From Candidatus Berkelbacteria bacterium (GTDB taxonomy: Bacteria > Patescibacteriota > UBA1384 > CAILIB01), in the NCBI GenBank assembly GCA_043751595.1, contig JAYUZR010000020.1, positions 336-64,335 of the forward strand: DNA of 64,000 bases. The letters run 5' to 3'. Both the position numbers and the translations under genes were made by a program. Each line of letters starts with the position of its first letter. The stretch's first letter is position 1. A model generated the notes under the pieces. It was not told the origin of the DNA, made no database searches, and saw only the letters and a program-made list of their open reading frames with translations. Of this stretch, positions 168-61,079 are shown in pieces.

Positions 168-242
<75 letters not shown>

Positions 243-381
243 TACTTTTACATCTGAGGTCAGAGGCAAATATGGGCTCAGTGCCCGTTTATTTGTATGA
301 TGGTTAGGCGGTGGTTTTTGTCGGTATGCGCAGTATGATTTTTGTCAGCGGTAACGCTGTAAAAATCAGACGAGCACACAT

Positions 382-456
382 GCCTCCTTAGCTCAGGGGT
401 AGAGCAACTGTTTTGTAAACAGTGGGTCGTCAGTTCAAATCTGACAGGGGGCTCCA
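382..456 (+). tRNA. tRNA-Thr, anticodon TGT
   Basis: Acceptor GCCTCCT/AGGGGGC with one GU pair, D-stem GCTC/GAGC, anticodon stem ACTGT/ACAGT with loop TTTGTAA, T-arm GTCAG-TTCAAAT-CTGAC, CCA encoded. Confidence 0.85.
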
Positions 457-583
457 AATTTTTGATGGACGTGCTAGAGAAAACAGCCGAAGGCGGGCTT
501 ACAGAAATTGCTTTGCAATTTCTGCTACCCCTCATTCGCTCGGTCAAAATAAGCAAGCTTATTTTTGCACCTCACTCATTTCG

Positions 584-669
584 GGGCAGTTACTCAAGCG
601 GTCAACGAGGGGAGACTGTAAATCTCTTGGCATCAGCCTTCTCAGGTTCGAATCCTGAACTGCCCACCA
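584..669 (+). tRNA. tRNA-Tyr, anticodon GTA, class II with long variable arm
   Basis: Acceptor GGGCAGT/ACTGCCC, anticodon stem GGAGA/TCTCT with loop CTGTAAA, long variable arm, T-arm TCAGG-TTCGAAT-CCTGA, CCA encoded. Overall similar to bacterial tRNA-Tyr. Confidence 0.85.
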
Positions 670-711
670 CTCCACATTTTTGTTCTCTATTTAGTCAGTT
701 AGTTACGTCCC

Positions 712-900
712 ATGGCCAAAAAAGGCAACCGAACTTGGGTTGAAGTACTCAATAAGGAGAGTGGTCTCGCTTATGTTACTACCCGAAACAAGGTAAACCA
801 GGCGGTAAAGAAAGGTGCAGACAAAGCCAAGCTCGTTCTTAGTAAGTACGATCCAAAGCTTCGTAAGCACGTGAAGTTTACCGAGACCAAGCGCAAGTAG
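712..900 (+). CDS. rpmG: 50S ribosomal protein L33
   Basis: 62-aa ORF with the L33 signature YVTTRNKVN...KLVLSKYDPKLRKHVKFTETK. Sits between the tRNA cluster and tRNA-Trp, as in many bacteria. Confidence 0.85.
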   Translation: MAKKGNRTWVEVLNKESGLAYVTTRNKVNQAVKKGADKAKLVLSKYDPKLRKHVKFTETKRK

Positions 901-904
901 TGCT

Positions 905-936
905 TGGGGCGCTCACTCTGGTGAGCGCCATTTTTC
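905..936 (+). terminator. Rho-independent terminator after rpmG
   Basis: GGGGCGCTCAC-TCTG-GTGAGCGCC followed by ATTTTT. Confidence 0.7.
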
Positions 937-937
937 T

Positions 938-1011
938 AGGGGTATGGTGAAATGGTATCACACGGGTCTCCAAAACCCTTGTCGTAGGTCCGATTCCTAC
1001 TACCCCTGCCA
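938..1011 (+). tRNA. tRNA-Trp, anticodon CCA
   Basis: Acceptor AGGGGTA/TACCCCT, D-stem GTGA/TCAC, anticodon loop CTCCAAA, T-arm GTAGG-TCCGATT-CCTAC, CCA encoded. Confidence 0.8.
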
Positions 1012-54283: not shown

Positions 54284-54997
54284 ATGAAATCACTCCATCC
54301 GCTCCAACTAGAAATCCTTCAGAAACTTCTTTTCTCCACTTCCCTTCGCTTTACCGACCTTAGACCAAACGAAGAAGTAGAGAATAATCAACTAGATTTT
54401 CATCTTCATAAGCTAATAGAGCTGAGCTACGTAGAAAAACGTGGCCTTGGATACGGCTTAACCTCACTTGGAAAGGAGTACGCCGGTAGAATCGATACAT
54501 CCAACCGACTTATCACTCGGCAAGGAAAGATTGGTGTCATTATTGGCTGTATTCGGGAGCGAAATGGCGAGAATGAGTTTCTTTTTTACACCCGCCTTAA
54601 GCAACCATTTTTTGAATGCCAGGGATTTCCTACCGGTAAGATCCAATTTGGCGAGAGCATTGTAGAAACGGCTGAACGAGAGTTATTTGAGGAAACCGGA
54701 TTAACCGGCAAGGCATCTGTTATTCAGCTTACCCATTATCGAGTACGAGCCATCGGTACCTCTGAGCTACTCGAGGATAAGTACTTATTCCTCTGCAAAG
54801 TGTCCGAGCCCGAAGGCGAGCTAATAGAGCGATCGGAAGAGGGCTTGTATTACTGGGTGAAGGAATCAGAAGTAGAAACAGTCATCACTAATCCCTTTGA
54901 TCCTATTGATGAATATCCGCGAGGAATTGAGCTACTTAAGAAAGATAATCCGATGGTTGAGATCATTGAGATTGAGCATGAGGGGAAGAAGTTTTAG
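54284..54997 (+). CDS. Winged-helix (MarR-like) plus NUDIX hydrolase fusion
   Basis: N-terminal wHTH, then Nudix box GKIQFGESIVETAERELFEETG. The stop codon abuts the 16-bp repeat. Confidence 0.7.
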   Translation: MKSLHPLQLEILQKLLFSTSLRFTDLRPNEEVENNQLDFHLHKLIELSYVEKRGLGYGLTSLGKEYAGRIDTSNRLITRQGKIGVIIGCIRERNGENEFLFYTRLKQPFFECQGFPTGKIQFGESIVETAERELFEETGLTGKASVIQLTHYRVRAIGTSELLEDKYLFLCKVSEPEGELIERSEEGLYYWVKESEVETVITNPFDPIDEYPRGIELLKKDNPMVEIIEIEHEGKKF

Positions 54998-55012
54998 GTC
55001 GGGGAAAGAGGA
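54997..55012. repeat. 16-bp direct repeat of the tRNA-Pro 3' end (GGTCGGGGAAAGAGGA); second copy at 55131-55146 inside the tRNA
   Basis: Exact 16-mer seen twice, 118 bp apart, in the same orientation. Confidence 0.7.
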
Positions 55013-55095
55013 AGTCGCGCTTCGCGCTCAACATTTCTCCATACTTCCTTAGTAGAAATGGTGAACCTTGGTTTCAAGCCTCGCTTCGCGACATA

Positions 55096-55127
55096 CCAAA
55101 AGAACCGCCGTTAGGCGGTTCTTTTGG
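55096..55127. terminator. Bidirectional terminator with perfect 14-bp stem
   Basis: CCAAAAGAACCGCC-GTTA-GGCGGTTCTTTTGG, immediately 3' of tRNA-Pro. Confidence 0.7.
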
Positions 55128-55129
55128 TA

Positions 55130-55206
55130 TGGTCGGGGAAAGAGGATTTGAACCTCCGATCTCCGGACCCCCAGCCCGGCGCACTAGGCCACTATGCTAT
55201 TCCCCG
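55130..55206 (-). tRNA. tRNA-Pro, anticodon GGG
   Basis: Reverse complement folds: acceptor CGGGGAA/TTCCCCG, D-stem GCAT/GTGC, anticodon stem CCGGG/TCCGG with loop CTGGGGG (G37), T-arm GGAGG-TTCAAAT-CCTCT, CCA encoded. Confidence 0.8.
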
Positions 55207-55536: not shown

Positions 55537-57804
55537 ATGAGTCAGTCCCTCGTGCGGCTTTGCCGCATTGTGGCCCCAGAACGCCTATCAGATCGCTTCC
55601 TTACCTCGGGTGTTCTCACCCAGCAAGAGGGCGATTTTGATGCTCAAAAAAGCGTCATCCTCTGCTACGTTCTCGAGATCACACGTCCCTGGTTCCCCTC
55701 CTCCACTGTGTTTGCAGCGGTGCGTGATGCACTTGCTGAAACCCTGCCATCGCTCACGCCTGGCGAAACCCTCATTGATCAGATCGAAGAACTTCTTCGC
55801 CTGGTTAACCGTCGCCTGGCCGATATCTCTGATCAAGGCGAAACCGACTGGATCGGCAACCTAAACGGTATGATTGTCGCGATTGGCGGCAACGAACTTC
55901 ACTTCTCTCAAGCCGGCAGTATTCCGGCTTATCTCTTGCAAAACAACAGAATCCGTCAGATTACCGACGATCAGCCGCAGCAACAAGATCCTAATCCCCT
56001 CCGCACCTTTGCTAACCTTTCTTCTGGCCAACTCCAAGAAGATGACCGGATCCTCTTTGGTACCCACGAACTCTACCGCGAGCTTTCGCTCGATGCTCTT
56101 CGCCGGATCGTCGGCAAAAGCTCTCCGTATCAGGCGAGCCAGAGCATTCTTCGAGAGCTTAAGCGAGCTAAAAATCCAGGCGTACTAAGTACCATTGTTT
56201 GGTTTGGCGCAACACCAGGAGCTACGGAACCTGATTCTGTTTCCCTAGAAGAAGCCCTGCGCACTCCAATGCAAAAGGTAGTGCACACCGTTACGCCAAT
56301 TGCTCACAAAACGATTCAGCACGGAAAAAGAGCAACTGGAGCCCTAAAAAAGGCAGCTGAAGTTGGCGCCCAGTATGTACAGGAGAAGGCAATTCCTGCC
56401 ACTGGCCGCATCATTAAAGCTGGCGAGAATCAGGCAGAACAGGTCTTCCAAAAGATTGATACTAAGTTTCATACTACCTCCCCTGCCCTTACCGATATTC
56501 CGGTAGAGGACCCTCTGGCCGATGGCACGATTATTATCCGCCTCTATCCTCAGGTAAAAGTAAGGACCAAAACATCTCCGCTAGTTGCGGCTCAGCGCGC
56601 TTTCTTTATTAGCCTCCACAAGCTGGCGCAAGCCTACCGTTGGGTGCAAGCAACGCAACTACGCAGAAGAGTTGGCCTGGCTGGTATTATTGTAGTGTGC
56701 GCCGGCGTTGGCACGCTCGCCATTTATGCCCGCAAGCAGCCGGTTGCTCTTACCCCTACTCAGAGCCAAAATACTACCGTTATTACTCGCCTCCGCGAAA
56801 TTGAGGCTGCGGTAAAGACCGAGACCAATCAAACCACCTTGGCCCAGCTTACCACCGAGGCAAATACCCAGTACGATGCTCTGCAAAGCCCCGGCGAAGG
56901 CCAAAAGCGCGAGGCAGACCGCCTCTGGATAAGTATTACCGACCAACTGGATACCATTACCAAAACGGTTCGCTTTGTTGATTCCACCGAAAGTTACACC
57001 CTACCCGCGGCTGGAAAACAGGTAATTGCCAGCCTGCCCTTTATGTACGCCACCCCAAGCGGCAACCTTACTAGCCTGCTTCGTACCGGCAAGGGGAATG
57101 CTTCCGCCACCCAACGCACGCTTCCTATTACCGGCGACGAAGTACCAGTTGCCCTTACCCGAAGTCTTGAGGCCGATACCGCGGGTTACATTTTTACCAA
57201 CCAGCGCAGCATGTATCGCATCACTCAAGAAGATGCCGAGACTACCCTTCGTAAAGTGGAGCTTGATGGCGGCGAAAAGTTCTCCAGCGGCGATATGATC
57301 GGAACCTACCACGGCAACCTCTATATTGTAGATAGTGTAAACGGGCTCCTCTGGCGCTATGCCACCACCGGTACCGCCTACGGCAAGGGCTCCAGCGTGA
57401 TTGATAAAACCAAGTACGATCTTAAGGGAGCTACTTCCTTTGCAATTGATGGCGCGATCTACCTGCTTAAAAAGGATGGGACGGTCCAGAAGTTTGTCAC
57501 CGGAAAACAGGATACTAATTTTGCCCTTACCGGCATTCCGGAAGCTTCGCCAAAGGTGGTGCAGCCGCTCCAGATTCTTACAAATGAAAATACCGATAAT
57601 CTCTATTTGCTGGATGGCGGCATTACCAGTAGCGCTCGCCCGACTGCCCGTATTTTAGAGTTTAGTAAGAGCGGAAGTTTTATTCGCCAGTTTGCCTTCC
57701 CTGCAAGTGTAACGGCGGTTAAATCGGTTGATATTAGCGAGCAAGAGCGCATGATCTGGGCGTTGAGTGGCGATAAGGTGACGGCATTTAGCCTTCCACA
57801 ATAG
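55537..57804 (+). CDS. Membrane protein with N-terminal PP2C/SpoIIE-like (probably inactive) domain, a TM helix, and a C-terminal beta-propeller-like domain
   Basis: IVAIGGNELHFSQAGSIPAYLLQNNRIRQITDD and DDRILFGTHEL align with PP2C motifs, but GDSR reads GGNE and SDGL reads GTHE. TM VGLAGIIVVCAGVGTLAIYA. Repeats with the pattern NLY(I/L)(V/L)D...G. Confidence 0.6.
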   Translation: MSQSLVRLCRIVAPERLSDRFLTSGVLTQQEGDFDAQKSVILCYVLEITRPWFPSSTVFAAVRDALAETLPSLTPGETLIDQIEELLRLVNRRLADISDQGETDWIGNLNGMIVAIGGNELHFSQAGSIPAYLLQNNRIRQITDDQPQQQDPNPLRTFANLSSGQLQEDDRILFGTHELYRELSLDALRRIVGKSSPYQASQSILRELKRAKNPGVLSTIVWFGATPGATEPDSVSLEEALRTPMQKVVHTVTPIAHKTIQHGKRATGALKKAAEVGAQYVQEKAIPATGRIIKAGENQAEQVFQKIDTKFHTTSPALTDIPVEDPLADGTIIIRLYPQVKVRTKTSPLVAAQRAFFISLHKLAQAYRWVQATQLRRRVGLAGIIVVCAGVGTLAIYARKQPVALTPTQSQNTTVITRLREIEAAVKTETNQTTLAQLTTEANTQYDALQSPGEGQKREADRLWISITDQLDTITKTVRFVDSTESYTLPAAGKQVIASLPFMYATPSGNLTSLLRTGKGNASATQRTLPITGDEVPVALTRSLEADTAGYIFTNQRSMYRITQEDAETTLRKVELDGGEKFSSGDMIGTYHGNLYIVDSVNGLLWRYATTGTAYGKGSSVIDKTKYDLKGATSFAIDGAIYLLKKDGTVQKFVTGKQDTNFALTGIPEASPKVVQPLQILTNENTDNLYLLDGGITSSARPTARILEFSKSGSFIRQFAFPASVTAVKSVDISEQERMIWALSGDKVTAFSLPQ

Positions 57805-57814
57805 GTTACGGATT

Positions 57815-57852
57815 AAAAAAGCCGCAGTCCCCGGAGGGTCTGCGGCTTTTTC
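57815..57852. terminator. Bidirectional terminator
   Basis: AAAAAAGCCGCAG...CTGCGGCTTTTTC between convergent genes. Confidence 0.7.
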
Positions 57853-57869
57853 TTTGCGATATTCTGTTT

Positions 57870-59165
57870 TTAGAACGGCGGAGGCGTGGGACTGGGCGCC
57901 GGCGTTGCCAGCGGGTCCCGCGCCTTCACTTCCACCGTGAGGGTGGCGGAAATGAGGTCGCGATTTTCCGTTCCCTCGGCCATCAGGAGCTTGCCGAAGA
58001 CAAGATTATCCAGGCGGCGTAGTGCATCCTGGTGAAAATCGGTCGGTAGCTCGAAGTCGATCGACTCCGTTTTACCGTCCATTCCGTCAAACAAGTAGGT
58101 CAGCTTGGCTTTTATGTCCCACGACGCTGGCAAAGCCGAGCCGAGCCGATTTGCGACCGGAATCAGCAACCCGTAATAGGTCCCGGCGCCCTGAGCGCCC
58201 TGCCCGTTGTCGCGACAAACGAAGTGCGTGATCGTCTCCTGGGGTTTCCCAGGCATCGTGATCTTTACTTCGAGCGTCCCGACTGCCGGCGCCCCGGCTT
58301 TGATCAGAGACCCGAACTGGCCGTCGAAGGCCAGCGTGTGCGTGGGGGCACCCATCGCACGAGTGACGACGCTCCCATCGAGCAGGCGGAAGTCTGATGT
58401 ACCAATCGCAACGGGCAAGCGACGCGGACCGAGGTCGTCGATCGCGTGCCCAGTGGCAATCCAGCCGCCTTTCTGAGGCGAGTAATCAGTGAGGGTTGCC
58501 GAGCCGTAGAGCTCGACTTCCGGACCATACACCGCGAAGAACACGTACTTGCGCCCGGGGGCGAATTCGGTGTCTCTCACGGCACGGCTGGAGCTCACTT
58601 GTCCGCTAATGGGGGTAATCCCCGTCTTGGAGAAGTGAGTGAGATTGATAGACGAAGGCGCTCCTTTCAGCACCCAGGGAATGCGAGGCGGTGTTGTACC
58701 GCCACGACCACGACCGGAGTAGCTGAGCTGCAGCATCTGACTAAAGCTGCGAGCATAGACGCTTTTCGCGTCGTACCCGGACCAAACAGCCGCAACCAAC
58801 TTGCCGTCTGCGGTAACTACCGGACTACCGGAGTCACCTGGTCCAAGCTTCTGATCGGCCTGAGGCAGAATAGCAATCTGATCGTTGCCATTGTCCGCCC
58901 CCGCAGAAATCAATTGAACCTCACGCTTATAGACGCCGGTTCCGGCATCATTCGTGAGAACATAAAGCTTGGTACCTGACGCAAGCGCACGGGTGTCATC
59001 CCACCCAAGCATCCCCGTGTAAGGAAAGATACCGGAGATGAGCTCACCCTTAGGCGTGTCGTAGGTTGCGACGTTACCATCACTCCCTCCACCACAGCCC
59101 GAAATAAGCACTCCGCAAGCAAAAAACATGCAGAGCATCCAATAACGCAACATGTTAACCATCAT
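57870..59165 (-). CDS. GC-rich lipoprotein with SpoIVB/S55-like serine-peptidase motif
   Basis: SD AAGGA 6 nt upstream. Lipobox LISGC. Motif GPGDSGSPVVTADGKLVAAVWSG resembles SpoIVB GMSGSPIIQNGKVIGAV. No His lies N-terminal to it. Sampled GC is about 63-67%, against about 42-58% elsewhere. Confidence 0.6.
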   Translation of the reverse strand: MMVNMLRYWMLCMFFACGVLISGCGGGSDGNVATYDTPKGELISGIFPYTGMLGWDDTRALASGTKLYVLTNDAGTGVYKREVQLISAGADNGNDQIAILPQADQKLGPGDSGSPVVTADGKLVAAVWSGYDAKSVYARSFSQMLQLSYSGRGRGGTTPPRIPWVLKGAPSSINLTHFSKTGITPISGQVSSSRAVRDTEFAPGRKYVFFAVYGPEVELYGSATLTDYSPQKGGWIATGHAIDDLGPRRLPVAIGTSDFRLLDGSVVTRAMGAPTHTLAFDGQFGSLIKAGAPAVGTLEVKITMPGKPQETITHFVCRDNGQGAQGAGTYYGLLIPVANRLGSALPASWDIKAKLTYLFDGMDGKTESIDFELPTDFHQDALRRLDNLVFGKLLMAEGTENRDLISATLTVEVKARDPLATPAPSPTPPPF

Positions 59166-59315
59166 GTTTCCTTTCCAACCGAAGCACTTTAAATGTGCTA
59201 GAGAGCATTTACTTTAGATTTAATCAAATGTCAATCTGTCAGAGGCCTTCTTCTTGGGGCTTTAACCCGCCGCAGAAGAGCGCATTTCATTATTGAAATG
59301 CTCTCTTCGAGGCTC

Positions 59316-61079
59316 TTACATACGTGAGGGAACCGGCATTCCTAACACCCCATTCGCCAGCTGCACTAATACGCGTTCGGTAAGTTCAGTTACCGCAATC
59401 CAACGCACCTGCTCATCGCCCGCTGCCTGCATAATGCGGCATTGCTCGTAAAAGCGGTTCGCTGCCTGCGCTACACTAAAGAGGTGATCAGCAACGGTAT
59501 GTGGCGTAAGCGTTACGGCCACTTCAGCCAAAACCTTTGGAGTGGCAAGCAATACAAGGAGCAAGGCGCGCTCGCTTTCGGCCAGATTACTACCAACCCA
59601 AGCGCCAGCCACACCAGCTTTACGCAACACCGCCCGCAAGCGAACAATGGTATACAGAATAGAAGGACCAGTCTTGCCCTCAAAACTGGCAAAACGTGCG
59701 GGATCAAACTTATAATCCGACTTTTTATCGCTAGAGAGATCCCCAAACTTAAGCGCTGCCACCGCTACTTTTTCAGCAATTTCTTGCTGTTCTTCTTCGG
59801 AGTAATCCTTAGCTACACCGGCACGCTGCATAGTTTCTTTAGCGGCGGCAAGCAGGGTATCGATAAGCTCCTCGAGGCGCATTACGCCGCCATCGCGAGA
59901 TTTAAACGGCTTGCCATCTTCTCCGTTAAGCGTGCCAAACCCATGGAAAGTAAGCACTTGATCTTCAGGCACATAGCCGGCCTGGCGGCCAGCATCAAAC
60001 ACTTGCTCAAAGTGCAGTCCCTGACGCTTATCTACCACATAGTGACTCTCATCGAATCCATTTTTGGTTCGATCTACGATGGTGGCGATATCGGTGGTGG
60101 CGTACAGGTAGGCGCCGTCCGATTTAAGCAAAATAAGTGGAGGTGAATCTTCTCCTACCGGAATAATCGTGGCGCCGTTGTCTTGCTTAGCAATTCTTCT
60201 ATCCAGTAAGTCCTTAACGATCCCCGGAATCATATCATTGTAATAGCTTTCGCCGTGCCAATAATCAAAGATAATACCCAATCGCTCATACTGGCGCTTG
60301 GCATCCGCCAAAGAAATCTTTGCAAACTGCCCCCACAGAGCCAAATACCCCCTTCTCCCCTGCTGAAGTTCTAGGGTAGCCTTAAGGGCCGCGGCTTTAG
60401 CTTCGGGATCGGTCTTAGCTAGACCCGATTCAAAAGGATAAATCCGGCCGAGATCTTCGAGCGTTACCGGAGATTCGGTTGGATATTCACCAGCAAACAA
60501 TTCATCGAAGTATGGAAGATCTGGTTGTTCGCGCTGAATACCGATAATTACCATTCCCATTTGAGTGCCCCAATCTCCCTGATGAACATCACCCAGTACT
60601 TCGTGACCGAGCAGCTGCATGAGCCGAATTAGCGAGTTTCCAATAACAGCCGAGCGCATATGCCCTACGTGTAACGGCTTTGCTACGTTTGGCCCACCAT
60701 AATCTACGGCGATTTTCTTCTTTTTCTGAGCCAGTGGAGCGAGCAGTCTATCACTCTCGGCAAGTTGCTCAGCAGCCCTCATTACAACGCTCTCGGAAAG
60801 GCGAAGATTCACAAATCCAGGTCCCGCACTACTTACTTCAGAAAAATCAGTGTCTTTCTGTAAAAACTCAACCACCTGCACAGCAATCTCTTGGGGAGAC
60901 TTTTGCAATTGCTTAGCTAGGGCCAAGGCACCATTCCATTGATAATCGGCAAGATCGGGGCGACCAGAAACCACTACCTCCACTCCGTAATCTTGTATCA
61001 AAAAACCAAGCGCACTGAGCGCATCCGTAATTTTGGCTCGCAAGACCTCAGAAATAACTTCCGACGAGAGGGTGATCAT
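59316..61079 (-). CDS. argS: Arginine--tRNA ligase
   Basis: 587 aa with class I HIGH-type PLHVGHMRS and the ArgS anticodon-binding C-terminus. Confidence 0.9.
   Translation of the reverse strand: MITLSSEVISEVLRAKITDALSALGFLIQDYGVEVVVSGRPDLADYQWNGALALAKQLQKSPQEIAVQVVEFLQKDTDFSEVSSAGPGFVNLRLSESVVMRAAEQLAESDRLLAPLAQKKKKIAVDYGGPNVAKPLHVGHMRSAVIGNSLIRLMQLLGHEVLGDVHQGDWGTQMGMVIIGIQREQPDLPYFDELFAGEYPTESPVTLEDLGRIYPFESGLAKTDPEAKAAALKATLELQQGRRGYLALWGQFAKISLADAKRQYERLGIIFDYWHGESYYNDMIPGIVKDLLDRRIAKQDNGATIIPVGEDSPPLILLKSDGAYLYATTDIATIVDRTKNGFDESHYVVDKRQGLHFEQVFDAGRQAGYVPEDQVLTFHGFGTLNGEDGKPFKSRDGGVMRLEELIDTLLAAAKETMQRAGVAKDYSEEEQQEIAEKVAVAALKFGDLSSDKKSDYKFDPARFASFEGKTGPSILYTIVRLRAVLRKAGVAGAWVGSNLAESERALLLVLLATPKVLAEVAVTLTPHTVADHLFSVAQAANRFYEQCRIMQAAGDEQVRWIAVTELTERVLVQLANGVLGMPVPSRM

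What the first reader, a model, noticed from the sequence alone, without database searches (positions are those of the whole stretch)
57815..59280. GC-rich (about 63-67% in sampled windows) lipoprotein gene with a SpoIVB/S55-type Ser motif, boxed between a perfect terminator and its own consensus promoter; probable horizontal acquisition
Hand counts of 100-nt samples give 67% and 63% GC, against about 42-58% elsewhere. Many long alternative-frame ORFs on the same span are consistent with high GC. The gene has its own TTGACA-17-TAAATG promoter (59234-59206, minus strand) and an AAGGA Shine-Dalgarno. It encodes a lipobox lipoprotein with GPGDSGSPVVTADGKLVAAVWSG, which is closest to the SpoIVB/S55 catalytic Ser region. 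However, no His lies N-terminal to it. That suggests a permuted or non-canonical peptidase, or a binding module. It lies within 2.7 kb of the tRNA-Pro scar.
Basis: partly seen in the sequence, partly recalled or inferred. Interest (0 to 1): 0.6.

Follow-up and report, generated by a model that had tools for sequence, protein, structure and literature searches.

The report
Acquired lipoprotein protease with swapped halves
A single GC-rich gene, probably acquired from another phylum, encodes a membrane-anchored protein that looks like a SpoIVB-type serine protease with its two halves in reversed order, and it belongs to a small family that no database describes.

Summary
The gene is real: window 57870-59165, minus strand, 431 aa. 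It is the strongest compositional outlier in the 64 kb. GC is 58.6% against 48.9% (z 4.5), GC3 is 66% against 50% (z 4.0), and tetranucleotide distance ranks 1 of 291 windows.

The gene is absent from the same five-gene neighbourhood in the closest available genome, a Berkelbacteria MAG. Its nearest homologues are about 30-33% identical (Fimbriimonas, soil contigs). Two of them were checked, and both sit natively in genomes of about 57% GC. Horizontal acquisition is well supported, but no donor is identified.

The protein has a lipobox (ISGC, Cys24) and no Pfam or NCBIfam family. It belongs to a rare family: 39 clusters among 1.84 billion representatives. Only four alignment columns are invariant: S112, G113, H240 and D281. 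The Ser region matches the C-terminal barrel of SpoIVB (hhalign 95.5%, E 1.6e-8). The His region matches SpoIVB's His236 region more weakly (E 4e-4). The order is therefore Ser, His, Asp, the reverse of SpoIVB and clan PA.

The fold search confirmed only one trypsin-like barrel. Triad geometry could not be checked. The promoter is only half consensus, and the tRNA-Pro link is not supported.

The parts
57870..59165 (-). Complete gene, 431 aa. A second ATG at 59162 gives the 430-aa product P0001 and has better spacing from the Shine-Dalgarno sequence.
   Evidence: ORF list. The identical protein and identical DNA occur in three independent samples.
59094..59165 (-). Signal peptide with lipobox L-I-S-G-C, aa 1-24. 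Cys24 is the predicted lipidated residue.
   Evidence: Read from the sequence. The G23 and C24 columns are at least 90% conserved in the family alignment.
58716..59021 (-). Ser-bearing beta-barrel, aa 49-150. It is equivalent to the C-terminal barrel of SpoIVB and trypsin-like peptidases.
   Evidence: Pfam Trypsin_2: aa 56-125 match profile positions 72-143 of 144. hhalign to SpoIVB 308-417: 95.5%, E 1.6e-8, score 57.7 against a shuffled mean of 13.6 +/- 2.7. The model shows three strands, then Ser, then three strands, then a helix.
58821..58838 (-). G110-D-S112-G-S-P115, the predicted nucleophile and oxyanion-hole motif. The Ser112 codon is 58830-58832.
   Evidence: S112 and G113 are invariant in 30 sequences whose mean column identity is 23%.
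58551..58715 (-). Poorly conserved, low-confidence linker, aa 151-205, rich in Ser, Arg and Gly.
   Evidence: pLDDT is 54-87 here, against 90-97 in the flanking domains. The alignment is gappy here.
58209..58550 (-). All-beta region, aa 206-319, carrying the invariant His240 (codon 58446-58448) and Asp281 (codon 58323-58325). It is the proposed equivalent of the His-bearing N-terminal barrel.
   Evidence: H240 and D281 are invariant. hhalign to SpoIVB 214-346 aligns GTLT...GH with GTMTF...GALGH236: E 3.6e-4 to 6.3e-4, scores 30.6-32.0 against a shuffled maximum of 23.2. A Pfam S55 hit matches profile positions 15-40. The sub-model has pLDDT 92.9 but found no PDB fold match.
57918..58208 (-). 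C-terminal alpha/beta domain, aa 320-416, of unknown role. Counting the preceding strand 310-317, the element order is beta-alpha-beta-beta-alpha-beta.
   Evidence: Secondary structure of the model. No match to SpoIVB or to Pfam.
57873..57917 (-). Pro/Thr/Ala-rich tail, aa 417-431.
   Evidence: Read from the sequence.
57816..57851 (.). Bidirectional intrinsic terminator hairpin shared with the convergent 755-aa gene.
   Evidence: Inverted repeat I5. Fold energy -27.3 kcal/mol, z -6.2, with 0 of 200 shuffles as stable.
59206..59234 (-). Promoter-like site: TTGACA, 17-nt spacer, TAAATG. The -35 is perfect and the -10 matches 3 of 6.
   Evidence: Read from the sequence. The consensus scan did not call it.
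59169..59173 (-). AAGGA Shine-Dalgarno sequence, 3 nt before the first ATG and 6 nt before the second.
   Evidence: Read from the sequence.
59275..59308 (-). Stem-loop just downstream of the ArgRS stop codon. It separates ArgRS from this gene's promoter region and has no U-tract.
   Evidence: Fold of 59240-59318: -30.4 kcal/mol, z -4.3.

Best explanation
This is a single-gene horizontal insertion between ArgRS and a conserved 755-aa gene in a Berkelbacteria-related (candidate phyla radiation) genome. It encodes a lipid-anchored extracytoplasmic serine endopeptidase.

The enzyme belongs to a rare, unannotated family that is homologous to SpoIVB (MEROPS S55, clan PA) but has its two halves in reversed order. 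The signal peptide is cleaved at Cys24. The Ser barrel comes first (aa 49-150, nucleophile Ser112 in GDSGSP). A flexible linker follows. Then comes the His/Asp region (aa 206-319, His240 as general base, Asp281 orienting it). An extra alpha/beta domain and a Pro-rich tail finish the protein.

Shown: the compositional anomaly, absence from the syntenic locus of the one relative available, family membership, invariance of Ser, His and Asp, homology of the Ser half to SpoIVB, and the reversed order of the motifs.

Inferred: lipidation, that the three residues form a working triad, that the second region is the true counterpart of the N-terminal barrel, proteolytic activity, and the substrate.
For: Acquisition:
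- GC is 58.6% against 48.9%, z 4.55, the window maximum.
- GC3 is 0.662 against 0.497, z 4.0, rank 1 of 56.
- Tetranucleotide distance is z 5.4, rank 1 of 291.
- The Berkelbacteria MAG WC_12 keeps the order PBP1, TyrRS, ArgRS, [slot], 733-aa homologue. Its slot holds a different 163-aa ORF.
- Homologues P0005 and P0004 have gene GC of 0.586 and 0.590 in flanks of 0.566 to 0.567. The target has 0.586 in flanks of 0.485.
- The closest homologue is Fimbriimonas ginsengisoli OP10G_0722, phylum Armatimonadota.

Enzyme:
- phmmer found 39 clusters with E<1e-3 among 1.84 billion representatives, mostly 400-450 aa and mostly with a lipobox.
- The invariant columns are S112, G113, H240 and D281 only. 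H and D stay invariant when two S55-annotated proteins are added.
- hhalign of the family against P0040, which passes the Pfam S55 cutoff: 98.9%, E 3.4e-17, 270 collinear columns.
- P0040-42 carry the C-terminal part of the S55 and TIGR02860 models at their own N-terminus.
- Ser half to SpoIVB 308-417: 95.5%, E 1.6e-8. His half to SpoIVB 214-346: E 3.6e-4. Both exceed 40 column shuffles.
- In the PDB, SpoIVB 9lnf matches the profile's His segment at chain residues 121-145 and its Ser segment at 276-318. That order is opposite to the query's.
- The AF2 model has pLDDT 85.2 and pTM 0.83.
- Foldseek finds HtrA, Spl, Esp and Rv3671c proteases with probability about 1, but only over 90-116 columns. 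That is what a sequential aligner gives if only one barrel is collinear.
Against: - The isolated His/Asp region, modelled at pLDDT 92.9, found no protease or any other significant fold in the PDB. The best E was 0.19 and the hits were noise.
- Its sequence profile alone found nothing in the PDB.
- hhalign probability for that half is only 28-37%.
- The coordinates of the models were not available to me, so the distances between Ser, His and Asp are unchecked.
- The target misses the Pfam S55 cutoff (11.6 bits against 25), and it also misses the Trypsin_2 cutoff (22.7 bits against 27.6).
- For acquisition, only one relative was available, and it is distant (ArgRS 56% identical).
- The best homologue is only 30-33% identical, so there is no donor.
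- No mobility gene or flanking repeat is present.
- Codon-usage distance is only z 1.8.
Confidence: 0.6

Rival explanations
1. The protein is a hybrid, not a true circular permutant. It keeps a trypsin/S55-type Ser barrel, but the downstream beta region has an unrelated fold. That fold supplies His and Asp by convergence, or does something else entirely.
For: The sub-model of aa 196-322 has no PDB fold match. The A2 profile finds no PDB sequence match. hhalign probability for this half is only 28-37%. The region has about ten strands rather than six.
Against: hhalign places it exactly on the SpoIVB His236 motif (GTxTF...GALGH). It also pairs the family's conserved-Gly, Asp281 and Gly285 columns with SpoIVB's invariant G285, N290 and G294. 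Scores of 30.6-32.0 compare with a shuffled maximum of 23.2. The matching segment of P0040 hits Pfam S55 profile positions 13-97 as its only Pfam match. The His-to-Asp spacing is 41 residues, which to my knowledge is close to the chymotrypsin His57-Asp102 spacing.
Confidence: 0.2
2. It is a catalytically dead pseudo-protease or binding module. The surface lipoprotein would use the old substrate groove to bind a ligand or a partner.
For: No activity data exist. The target fails every curated family cutoff. An extra C-terminal domain of unknown role is present. Asp111 of the GDSG motif varies within the family.
Against: Across 30 sequences with a mean column identity of 23%, the only invariant columns are the nucleophile Ser, the next Gly, one His and one Asp. 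From general knowledge, dead homologues usually lose these residues first.
Confidence: 0.1
3. The gene is native, not transferred. Its high GC would reflect its amino-acid content or local mutation bias, and the relative simply lost it.
For: Only one distant relative could be compared. The slot is variable, because the relative has another gene there. The neighbouring 755-aa gene is also slightly GC-rich at 52.3%. No integrase or flanking repeats are present. Codon-usage distance is only z 1.8.
Against: The GC excess is largest at third codon positions (0.66 against 0.50), so it is not an amino-acid effect. The tetranucleotide signature is the most deviant of 291 windows. The gene's GC equals that of homologues sitting in genomes of about 57% GC. 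The family is extremely sparse, and the only homologue whose organism is named is in another phylum.
Confidence: 0.12

Closest known systems
SpoIVB, the sporulation signalling peptidase of Bacillus (MEROPS S55; Pfam PF05580; TIGR02860; PDB 9lnf)
   Same: The Ser barrel is homologous, including G-x-S-G-S-P followed by GK.(I/V)(G/A)AV (hhalign 95.5%, E 1.6e-8). A His motif of the form GT.T...G.GH is shared. The G-x4-(D/N)-x3-G motif after it pairs with SpoIVB G285, N290 and G294.
   Different: The order is reversed: SpoIVB has His236 then Ser378, whereas the target has Ser112 then His240. There is no PDZ domain. The target has a lipoprotein anchor rather than the membrane-spanning N-terminal signal sequence that, to my knowledge, SpoIVB carries. 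Its third residue is an invariant Asp where SpoIVB has Asn290. It has an extra C-terminal domain. The organism is not a spore former. It scores below both family cutoffs.
About 590-aa 'Peptidase S55 domain' proteins of non-sporulating bacteria (P0040, P0041, P0042)
   Same: They show the same Ser-first, His-later, Asp order and are collinear over 270 columns (98.9%, E 3.4e-17). Only the C-terminal part of the S55 and TIGR02860 models matches, and it matches at their own N-terminus.
   Different: They are longer, with a longer linker and a C-terminal extension of about 250 aa. Those seen here show no lipobox. They pass the Pfam S55 cutoff and the target does not. BLASTP to the target aligns only 4-19% of it.
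Trypsin_2-type bacterial S1 peptidases (HtrA/DegP, staphylococcal Spl and Esp, Rv3671c)
   Same: They share the GDSG nucleophile motif. One beta-barrel superposes at rmsd 3-5 A over 90-116 columns with Foldseek probability about 1. Pfam Trypsin_2 gives E 1.9e-4 over the C-terminal half of the profile.
   Different: Nothing precedes the Ser barrel that could carry His and Asp. The whole protein is not collinear with them. There is no PDZ domain.
Fimbriimonas ginsengisoli OP10G_0722 (AIE84090.1), a hypothetical protein
   Same: It is the closest sequence: phmmer E 1e-30, and BLASTP 30% identity over 319 aa with the same motifs. It has similar length. Its 409-aa gene call lacks a lipobox. A 424-aa version, WP_144240973.1, is in the same cluster but was not examined.
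   Different: It comes from a different phylum, Armatimonadota, whose genome to my knowledge is high in GC. It is uncharacterised, so it says nothing about function.

Membership tests
Peptidase S55 (SpoIVB) | Match to PF05580 or TIGR02860 above the curated cutoff | tested here: not met
   PF05580 scores 11.6 bits against a cutoff of 25, E 0.28. There is no NCBIfam hit.
Peptidase S55 (SpoIVB) | Ser-bearing barrel with G-M/D-S-G-S-P and GK.IGAV | tested here: met
   hhalign to 59 canonical SpoIVBs, positions 308-417: 95.5%, E 1.6e-8. The PDB profile search hits 9lnf residues 276-318.
Peptidase S55 (SpoIVB) | Catalytic His in a GT.TF...GALGH motif | tested here: inconclusive
   The motif is present (SATLTDY..WIATGH240) and aligns to His236. 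Support is weak: E 3.6e-4 to 6.3e-4 and probability 28-37%, although above all shuffles.
Peptidase S55 (SpoIVB) | His precedes Ser in the chain (clan PA order) | tested here: not met
   Ser112 precedes His240 and Asp281. In SpoIVB the order is His236 then Ser378 (PMC12502668).
Peptidase S55 (SpoIVB) | PDZ domain N-terminal to the protease domain | tested here: not met
   There is no PDZ hit at E<=1. Only about 25 residues lie between Cys24 and the Ser barrel.
Clan PA chymotrypsin fold | Two six-stranded beta-barrels that each superpose on known members | tested here: inconclusive
Clan PA chymotrypsin fold | Ser, His and Asp within hydrogen-bonding distance at the barrel interface | not testable with these tools
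   I had no access to the model coordinates. Only pLDDT (91-97 in the blocks holding the three residues) and pTM 0.83 are known.
Bacterial lipoprotein | Lipobox [LVI][ASTVI][GAS]C after a positively charged n-region and a hydrophobic h-region | tested here: met
   The sequence reads MMVNMLRYW-MLCMFFACGVL-ISG-C24. The G and C columns are at least 90% conserved in the family.
Bacterial lipoprotein | Actual lipidation by Lgt and cleavage by LspA | not testable with these tools
   This needs an experiment. I did not search for the host's lgt and lspA genes.
Unnamed lipoprotein family (P0002-P0039, including Fimbriimonas OP10G_0722) | Full-length homology with shared Ser, His and Asp columns | tested here: met
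   phmmer E values run from 1e-30 to 5e-4 for 38 clusters. Alignment A1 shows the shared columns.
tRNA-associated genomic island | Integrase, direct repeats of the tRNA 3' end flanking the insert, and the insert adjacent to the tRNA | tested here: not met
   No integrase occurs in the neighbourhood. The only tRNA-Pro repeat lies 134 nt away on the far side of the tRNA. A syntenic 755-aa gene separates the tRNA from the target. No repeats flank the gene.

The most novel reading that the evidence does not exclude
This gene and its approximately 39-cluster family, together with the approximately 590-aa 'S55 domain' proteins, form a natural circularly permuted branch of the chymotrypsin-fold (clan PA) serine peptidases with catalytic order Ser-His-Asp. 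I found no description of this arrangement for the clan. One member has been transferred into a candidate-phyla-radiation bacterium as a surface lipoprotein. As a by-product, the alignment nominates the invariant Asn290, not Asp363, as the residue of SpoIVB that occupies the Asp102 position.
Probability: 0.45. Interest if true: 0.7.

Novelty: new variant of a known kind. Interest (0 to 1): 0.55.

Why it matters
To my knowledge, the order His-Asp-Ser is treated as a defining constant of clan PA peptidases. A natural family that keeps the chemistry but swaps the two barrels would be a clean case for asking how two-barrel enzymes evolve and fold. It would also explain why automated annotation gives this family nothing, or only half a domain. 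The comparison also offers a testable candidate, Asn290, for the disputed third catalytic residue of SpoIVB. For the host, a reduced-genome Berkelbacteria-like organism, a foreign surface protease is a plausible tool for dealing with a partner cell or with environmental protein. That last point is speculation.

Tried and rejected
- The first word-indexed homologue search found only the protein itself. The exhaustive HMMER search was needed to find the family.
- I spent my last homologue search on a 43-aa SpoIVB fragment. It returned only 48-76-aa fragments. I recovered full-length SpoIVBs instead by scanning metagenome contigs and extracting ORFs.
- The Foldseek search with the His/Asp sub-model gave noise. 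Its HMM search of the PDB gave chance hits to citrate synthase and cystathionine lyase.
- I rejected the tRNA-Pro island idea.
- I considered strain polymorphism at the junction, because two Logan contigs begin at exactly 57804. I rejected it because the partner contig from the same sample ends at 57827, inside the palindromic terminator. All copies are 100% identical, and no alternative junction exists for the flanking proteins.
- PHROGs and PADLOC gave no hits, so there is no phage or defence affiliation.
- Literature searches for a permuted S55 or clan PA protease found nothing relevant. The GREB1 paper matched only on residue numbers.
- No conserved gene neighbours were found around two homologues.
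Full report
**Observation**

The ORF at 57870-59165 on the minus strand encodes 431 aa. Its GC content is 58.6% against 48.9% for the window. This is the highest value of any 1296-nt window, z 4.55.

Among 56 non-overlapping long ORFs, the gene ranks first for GC (z 4.5) and for GC3 (0.662 against a mean of 0.497, z 4.0). It ranks third for codon-usage distance (z 1.8). Its tetranucleotide distance from the window is the largest of 291 windows (z 5.4). After normalising for base composition it is still z 2.4.

The downstream hairpin at 57816-57851 folds at -27.3 kcal/mol (z -6.2). It has an A-run on one side and a U-run on the other, so it can terminate both convergent genes. The upstream site is TTGACA, 17 nt, TAAATG. 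The -35 is perfect, but the -10 matches only 3 of 6 positions, and the consensus scan did not call it. A separate stem-loop at 59275-59308 follows the ArgRS stop codon. AAGGA lies 3 nt before the first ATG and 6 nt before the second.

**Genomic setting and acquisition**

The neighbourhood is PBP1, TyrRS, ArgRS, the target, a 755-aa protein with no Pfam match, a 77-aa ORF, then a NUDIX protein. tRNA-Pro lies near the 77-aa ORF.

The closest genome among 185,579 species representatives is a Candidatus Berkelbacteria MAG, with ArgRS 56% identical. It keeps the order PBP1, TyrRS, ArgRS and a 733-aa homologue of the 755-aa protein (31% identity, E 1e-108). Between ArgRS and that gene it has a 163-aa ORF resembling a phosphopantetheinyl transferase instead of the target. 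That ORF has no counterpart in the window.

The target's homologues P0005 and P0004 sit in contigs of 56.6% to 56.7% GC and have gene GC of 58.6% and 59.0%, so they are compositionally at home there. The target has the same GC in a 48.5% background. The best hit is a hypothetical protein of Fimbriimonas ginsengisoli, phylum Armatimonadota. BLASTP gives 30% identity over 319 residues.

The caveats are that only one distant relative was available, that no donor can be named at 30-33% identity, and that no mobility gene or flanking repeat is present.

The tRNA-Pro gene is intact. Its 16-nt duplicate lies on the side of the tRNA away from the target. The syntenic 755-aa gene lies between the tRNA and the target. 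The tRNA is therefore not the insertion site. The gene is 100% identical at the DNA level in three independent samples.

**What the protein is**

A single-sequence search gives only sub-threshold hits. Trypsin_2 scores E 1.9e-4, covering aa 56-125 against profile positions 72-143 of 144, which is the Ser-bearing half only. A faint S55 hit (E 0.28) lies at aa 221-246 against profile positions 15-40, not at the Ser motif. NCBIfam, PHROGs and PADLOC give nothing useful.

The word-indexed search of 5.8 billion proteins found only the protein itself. An exhaustive phmmer search of 1.84 billion cluster representatives found 39 clusters with E<1e-3, the best at E 1e-30. Most are 400-450 aa.

In an alignment of 30 of these (mean column identity 23%), nearly all begin with a lipobox. 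Exactly four columns are invariant: Ser112, Gly113, His240 and Asp281. The target has no His before residue 177. This is the signature of a Ser-His-Asp enzyme whose nucleophile comes first in the chain.

**Relation to SpoIVB**

The family profile retrieves proteins of about 590 aa (P0040-42) that pass the Pfam S55 cutoff. They do so only with profile positions 112-198 of 210, and that match lies at their own N-terminus. TIGR02860 behaves the same way, matching positions 301-382 of 402. hhalign of the family against P0040 gives 98.9%, E 3.4e-17, collinear over 270 columns that include the Ser, His and Asp motifs.

In the PDB, the best protease hit of the family profile is SpoIVB 9lnf. The profile's His segment (231-254) matches chain residues 121-145. 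Its Ser segment (104-147) matches chain residues 276-318. The order in SpoIVB is therefore opposite to the order in the query.

To quantify this, I extracted 59 full-length SpoIVB ORFs from metagenome loci. One of them, L088, shares the numbering of the B. subtilis protein: H236, D363 and S378 are all invariant (PMC12502668).
- The target's Ser half (aa 49-150) aligns to SpoIVB 308-417 at 95.5%, E 1.6e-8, score 57.7. Forty column-shuffled controls gave 13.6 +/- 2.7.
- The His half (aa 218-319) aligns to SpoIVB 214-346 at E 3.6e-4 to 6.3e-4, scores 30.6-32.0. The controls reached at most 23.2.
- GTLT...GH falls on GTMTF...GALGH236.
- The family's conserved Gly column (His276 in the target), Asp281 and Gly285 fall on SpoIVB's invariant G285, N290 and G294.

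Homology of the Ser half is therefore firm. Homology of the His half is supported but modest. The reversed order is what the sequences show directly.

**Structure**

The AlphaFold2 model built on the 30-sequence alignment is confident: pLDDT 85.2 and pTM 0.83. The linker (aa 150-200) and the region after the signal peptide are weak.

The Ser region shows three strands, then Ser, then three strands, then a helix. To my knowledge this is the topology of the chymotrypsin C-terminal barrel.

Foldseek against the PDB returns HtrA, SplA/B, Esp, V8 and Rv3671c proteases at probability about 1. The alignments cover only 90-116 columns at rmsd 3-5 A. The longer alignments have rmsd above 13 A. A sequential aligner should give this result if only one barrel is collinear.

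**Mechanism proposed**

Step 1 (inferred): the protein is exported, lipidated and cleaved at Cys24, which tethers it to the outer face of the membrane.

Step 2 (inferred from invariance and homology): the Ser barrel and the His/Asp region pack to form a Ser112-His240-Asp281 triad. The backbone of G110 and S112 forms the oxyanion hole, as in GDSG proteases.

Step 3 (speculative): the flexible Ser/Arg-rich linker may be a self-processing site, by analogy with SpoIVB autoproteolysis. The C-terminal beta-alpha-beta-beta-alpha-beta domain may regulate or target the enzyme.

The substrate is unknown. Homologues have no conserved neighbours.

**Novelty**

Neither Pfam nor NCBIfam covers the family. 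This was tested with Pfam on all 30 members and with NCBIfam on the target and four homologues. Full-text searches found no description of a permuted S55 or clan PA peptidase. The library lacks most subscription journals, so absence there is not proof.

The Ser-first arrangement is already latent in the databases as half-domain S55 hits on the proteins of about 590 aa. I therefore rate this as a new variant of a known kind, with moderate interest. It would rise if the triad geometry and activity are confirmed.

Noticed in passing
Loci L088-L167 (canonical SpoIVB ORFs), compared with window 58323-58325 (the Asp281 codon): The profile alignment pairs the family's invariant Asp281 with SpoIVB Asn290. 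Asn290 is 100% conserved in 59 SpoIVBs and is flanked by the invariant G285 and G294. The 2025 crystal paper (PMC12502668) finds that the textbook third residue, Asp363, lies about 24 A from His236. Asn290 may therefore occupy the Asp102 position in SpoIVB. The alignment has low probability (28-37%), so this is only a lead.
   Followed up: partly
Proteins P0040, P0041 and P0042 (not in the window): These proteins of about 590 aa pass the Pfam S55 cutoff with only the C-terminal part of the model, which is placed at their own N-terminus. They carry GT.TY...AFGH about 150 residues further on. They have the same Ser-first order as the target, so the reversed arrangement is wider than the lipoprotein family.
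   Followed up: partly
window 54997-55012 and 55131-55146; also 55092-55131: An exact 16-nt copy of the 3' end of tRNA-Pro(GGG) lies 134 nt beyond the tRNA. A perfect 18-bp hairpin abuts the tRNA's 3' end. This could be an old integration scar and a terminator. It lies on the side away from the target gene.
   Followed up: partly
window 55537-57804 (+): A 755-aa protein with no Pfam match is conserved (31% identity, full length) next to ArgRS in the Berkelbacteria MAG. It is an uncharacterised protein that appears specific to this lineage.
   Followed up: no
L004 11666-12157: In the Berkelbacteria relative, the slot between ArgRS and the 733-aa gene holds a 163-aa ORF with a phosphopantetheinyl-transferase-like motif (WSHSGEW...GIDIE). 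It has no homologue in the window. This intergenic slot is a site of gene turnover.
   Followed up: partly
window 57804-57827: Two independent Logan assemblies start a contig at exactly 57804, and a third contig ends at 57827. The break falls inside the palindromic terminator, so it is most likely an assembly artefact and not a strain junction.
   Followed up: yes
window 168-1011: A cluster of four tRNA genes (Thr-GGT, Thr-TGT, Tyr-GTA, Trp-CCA) lies at the start of the window.
   Followed up: no
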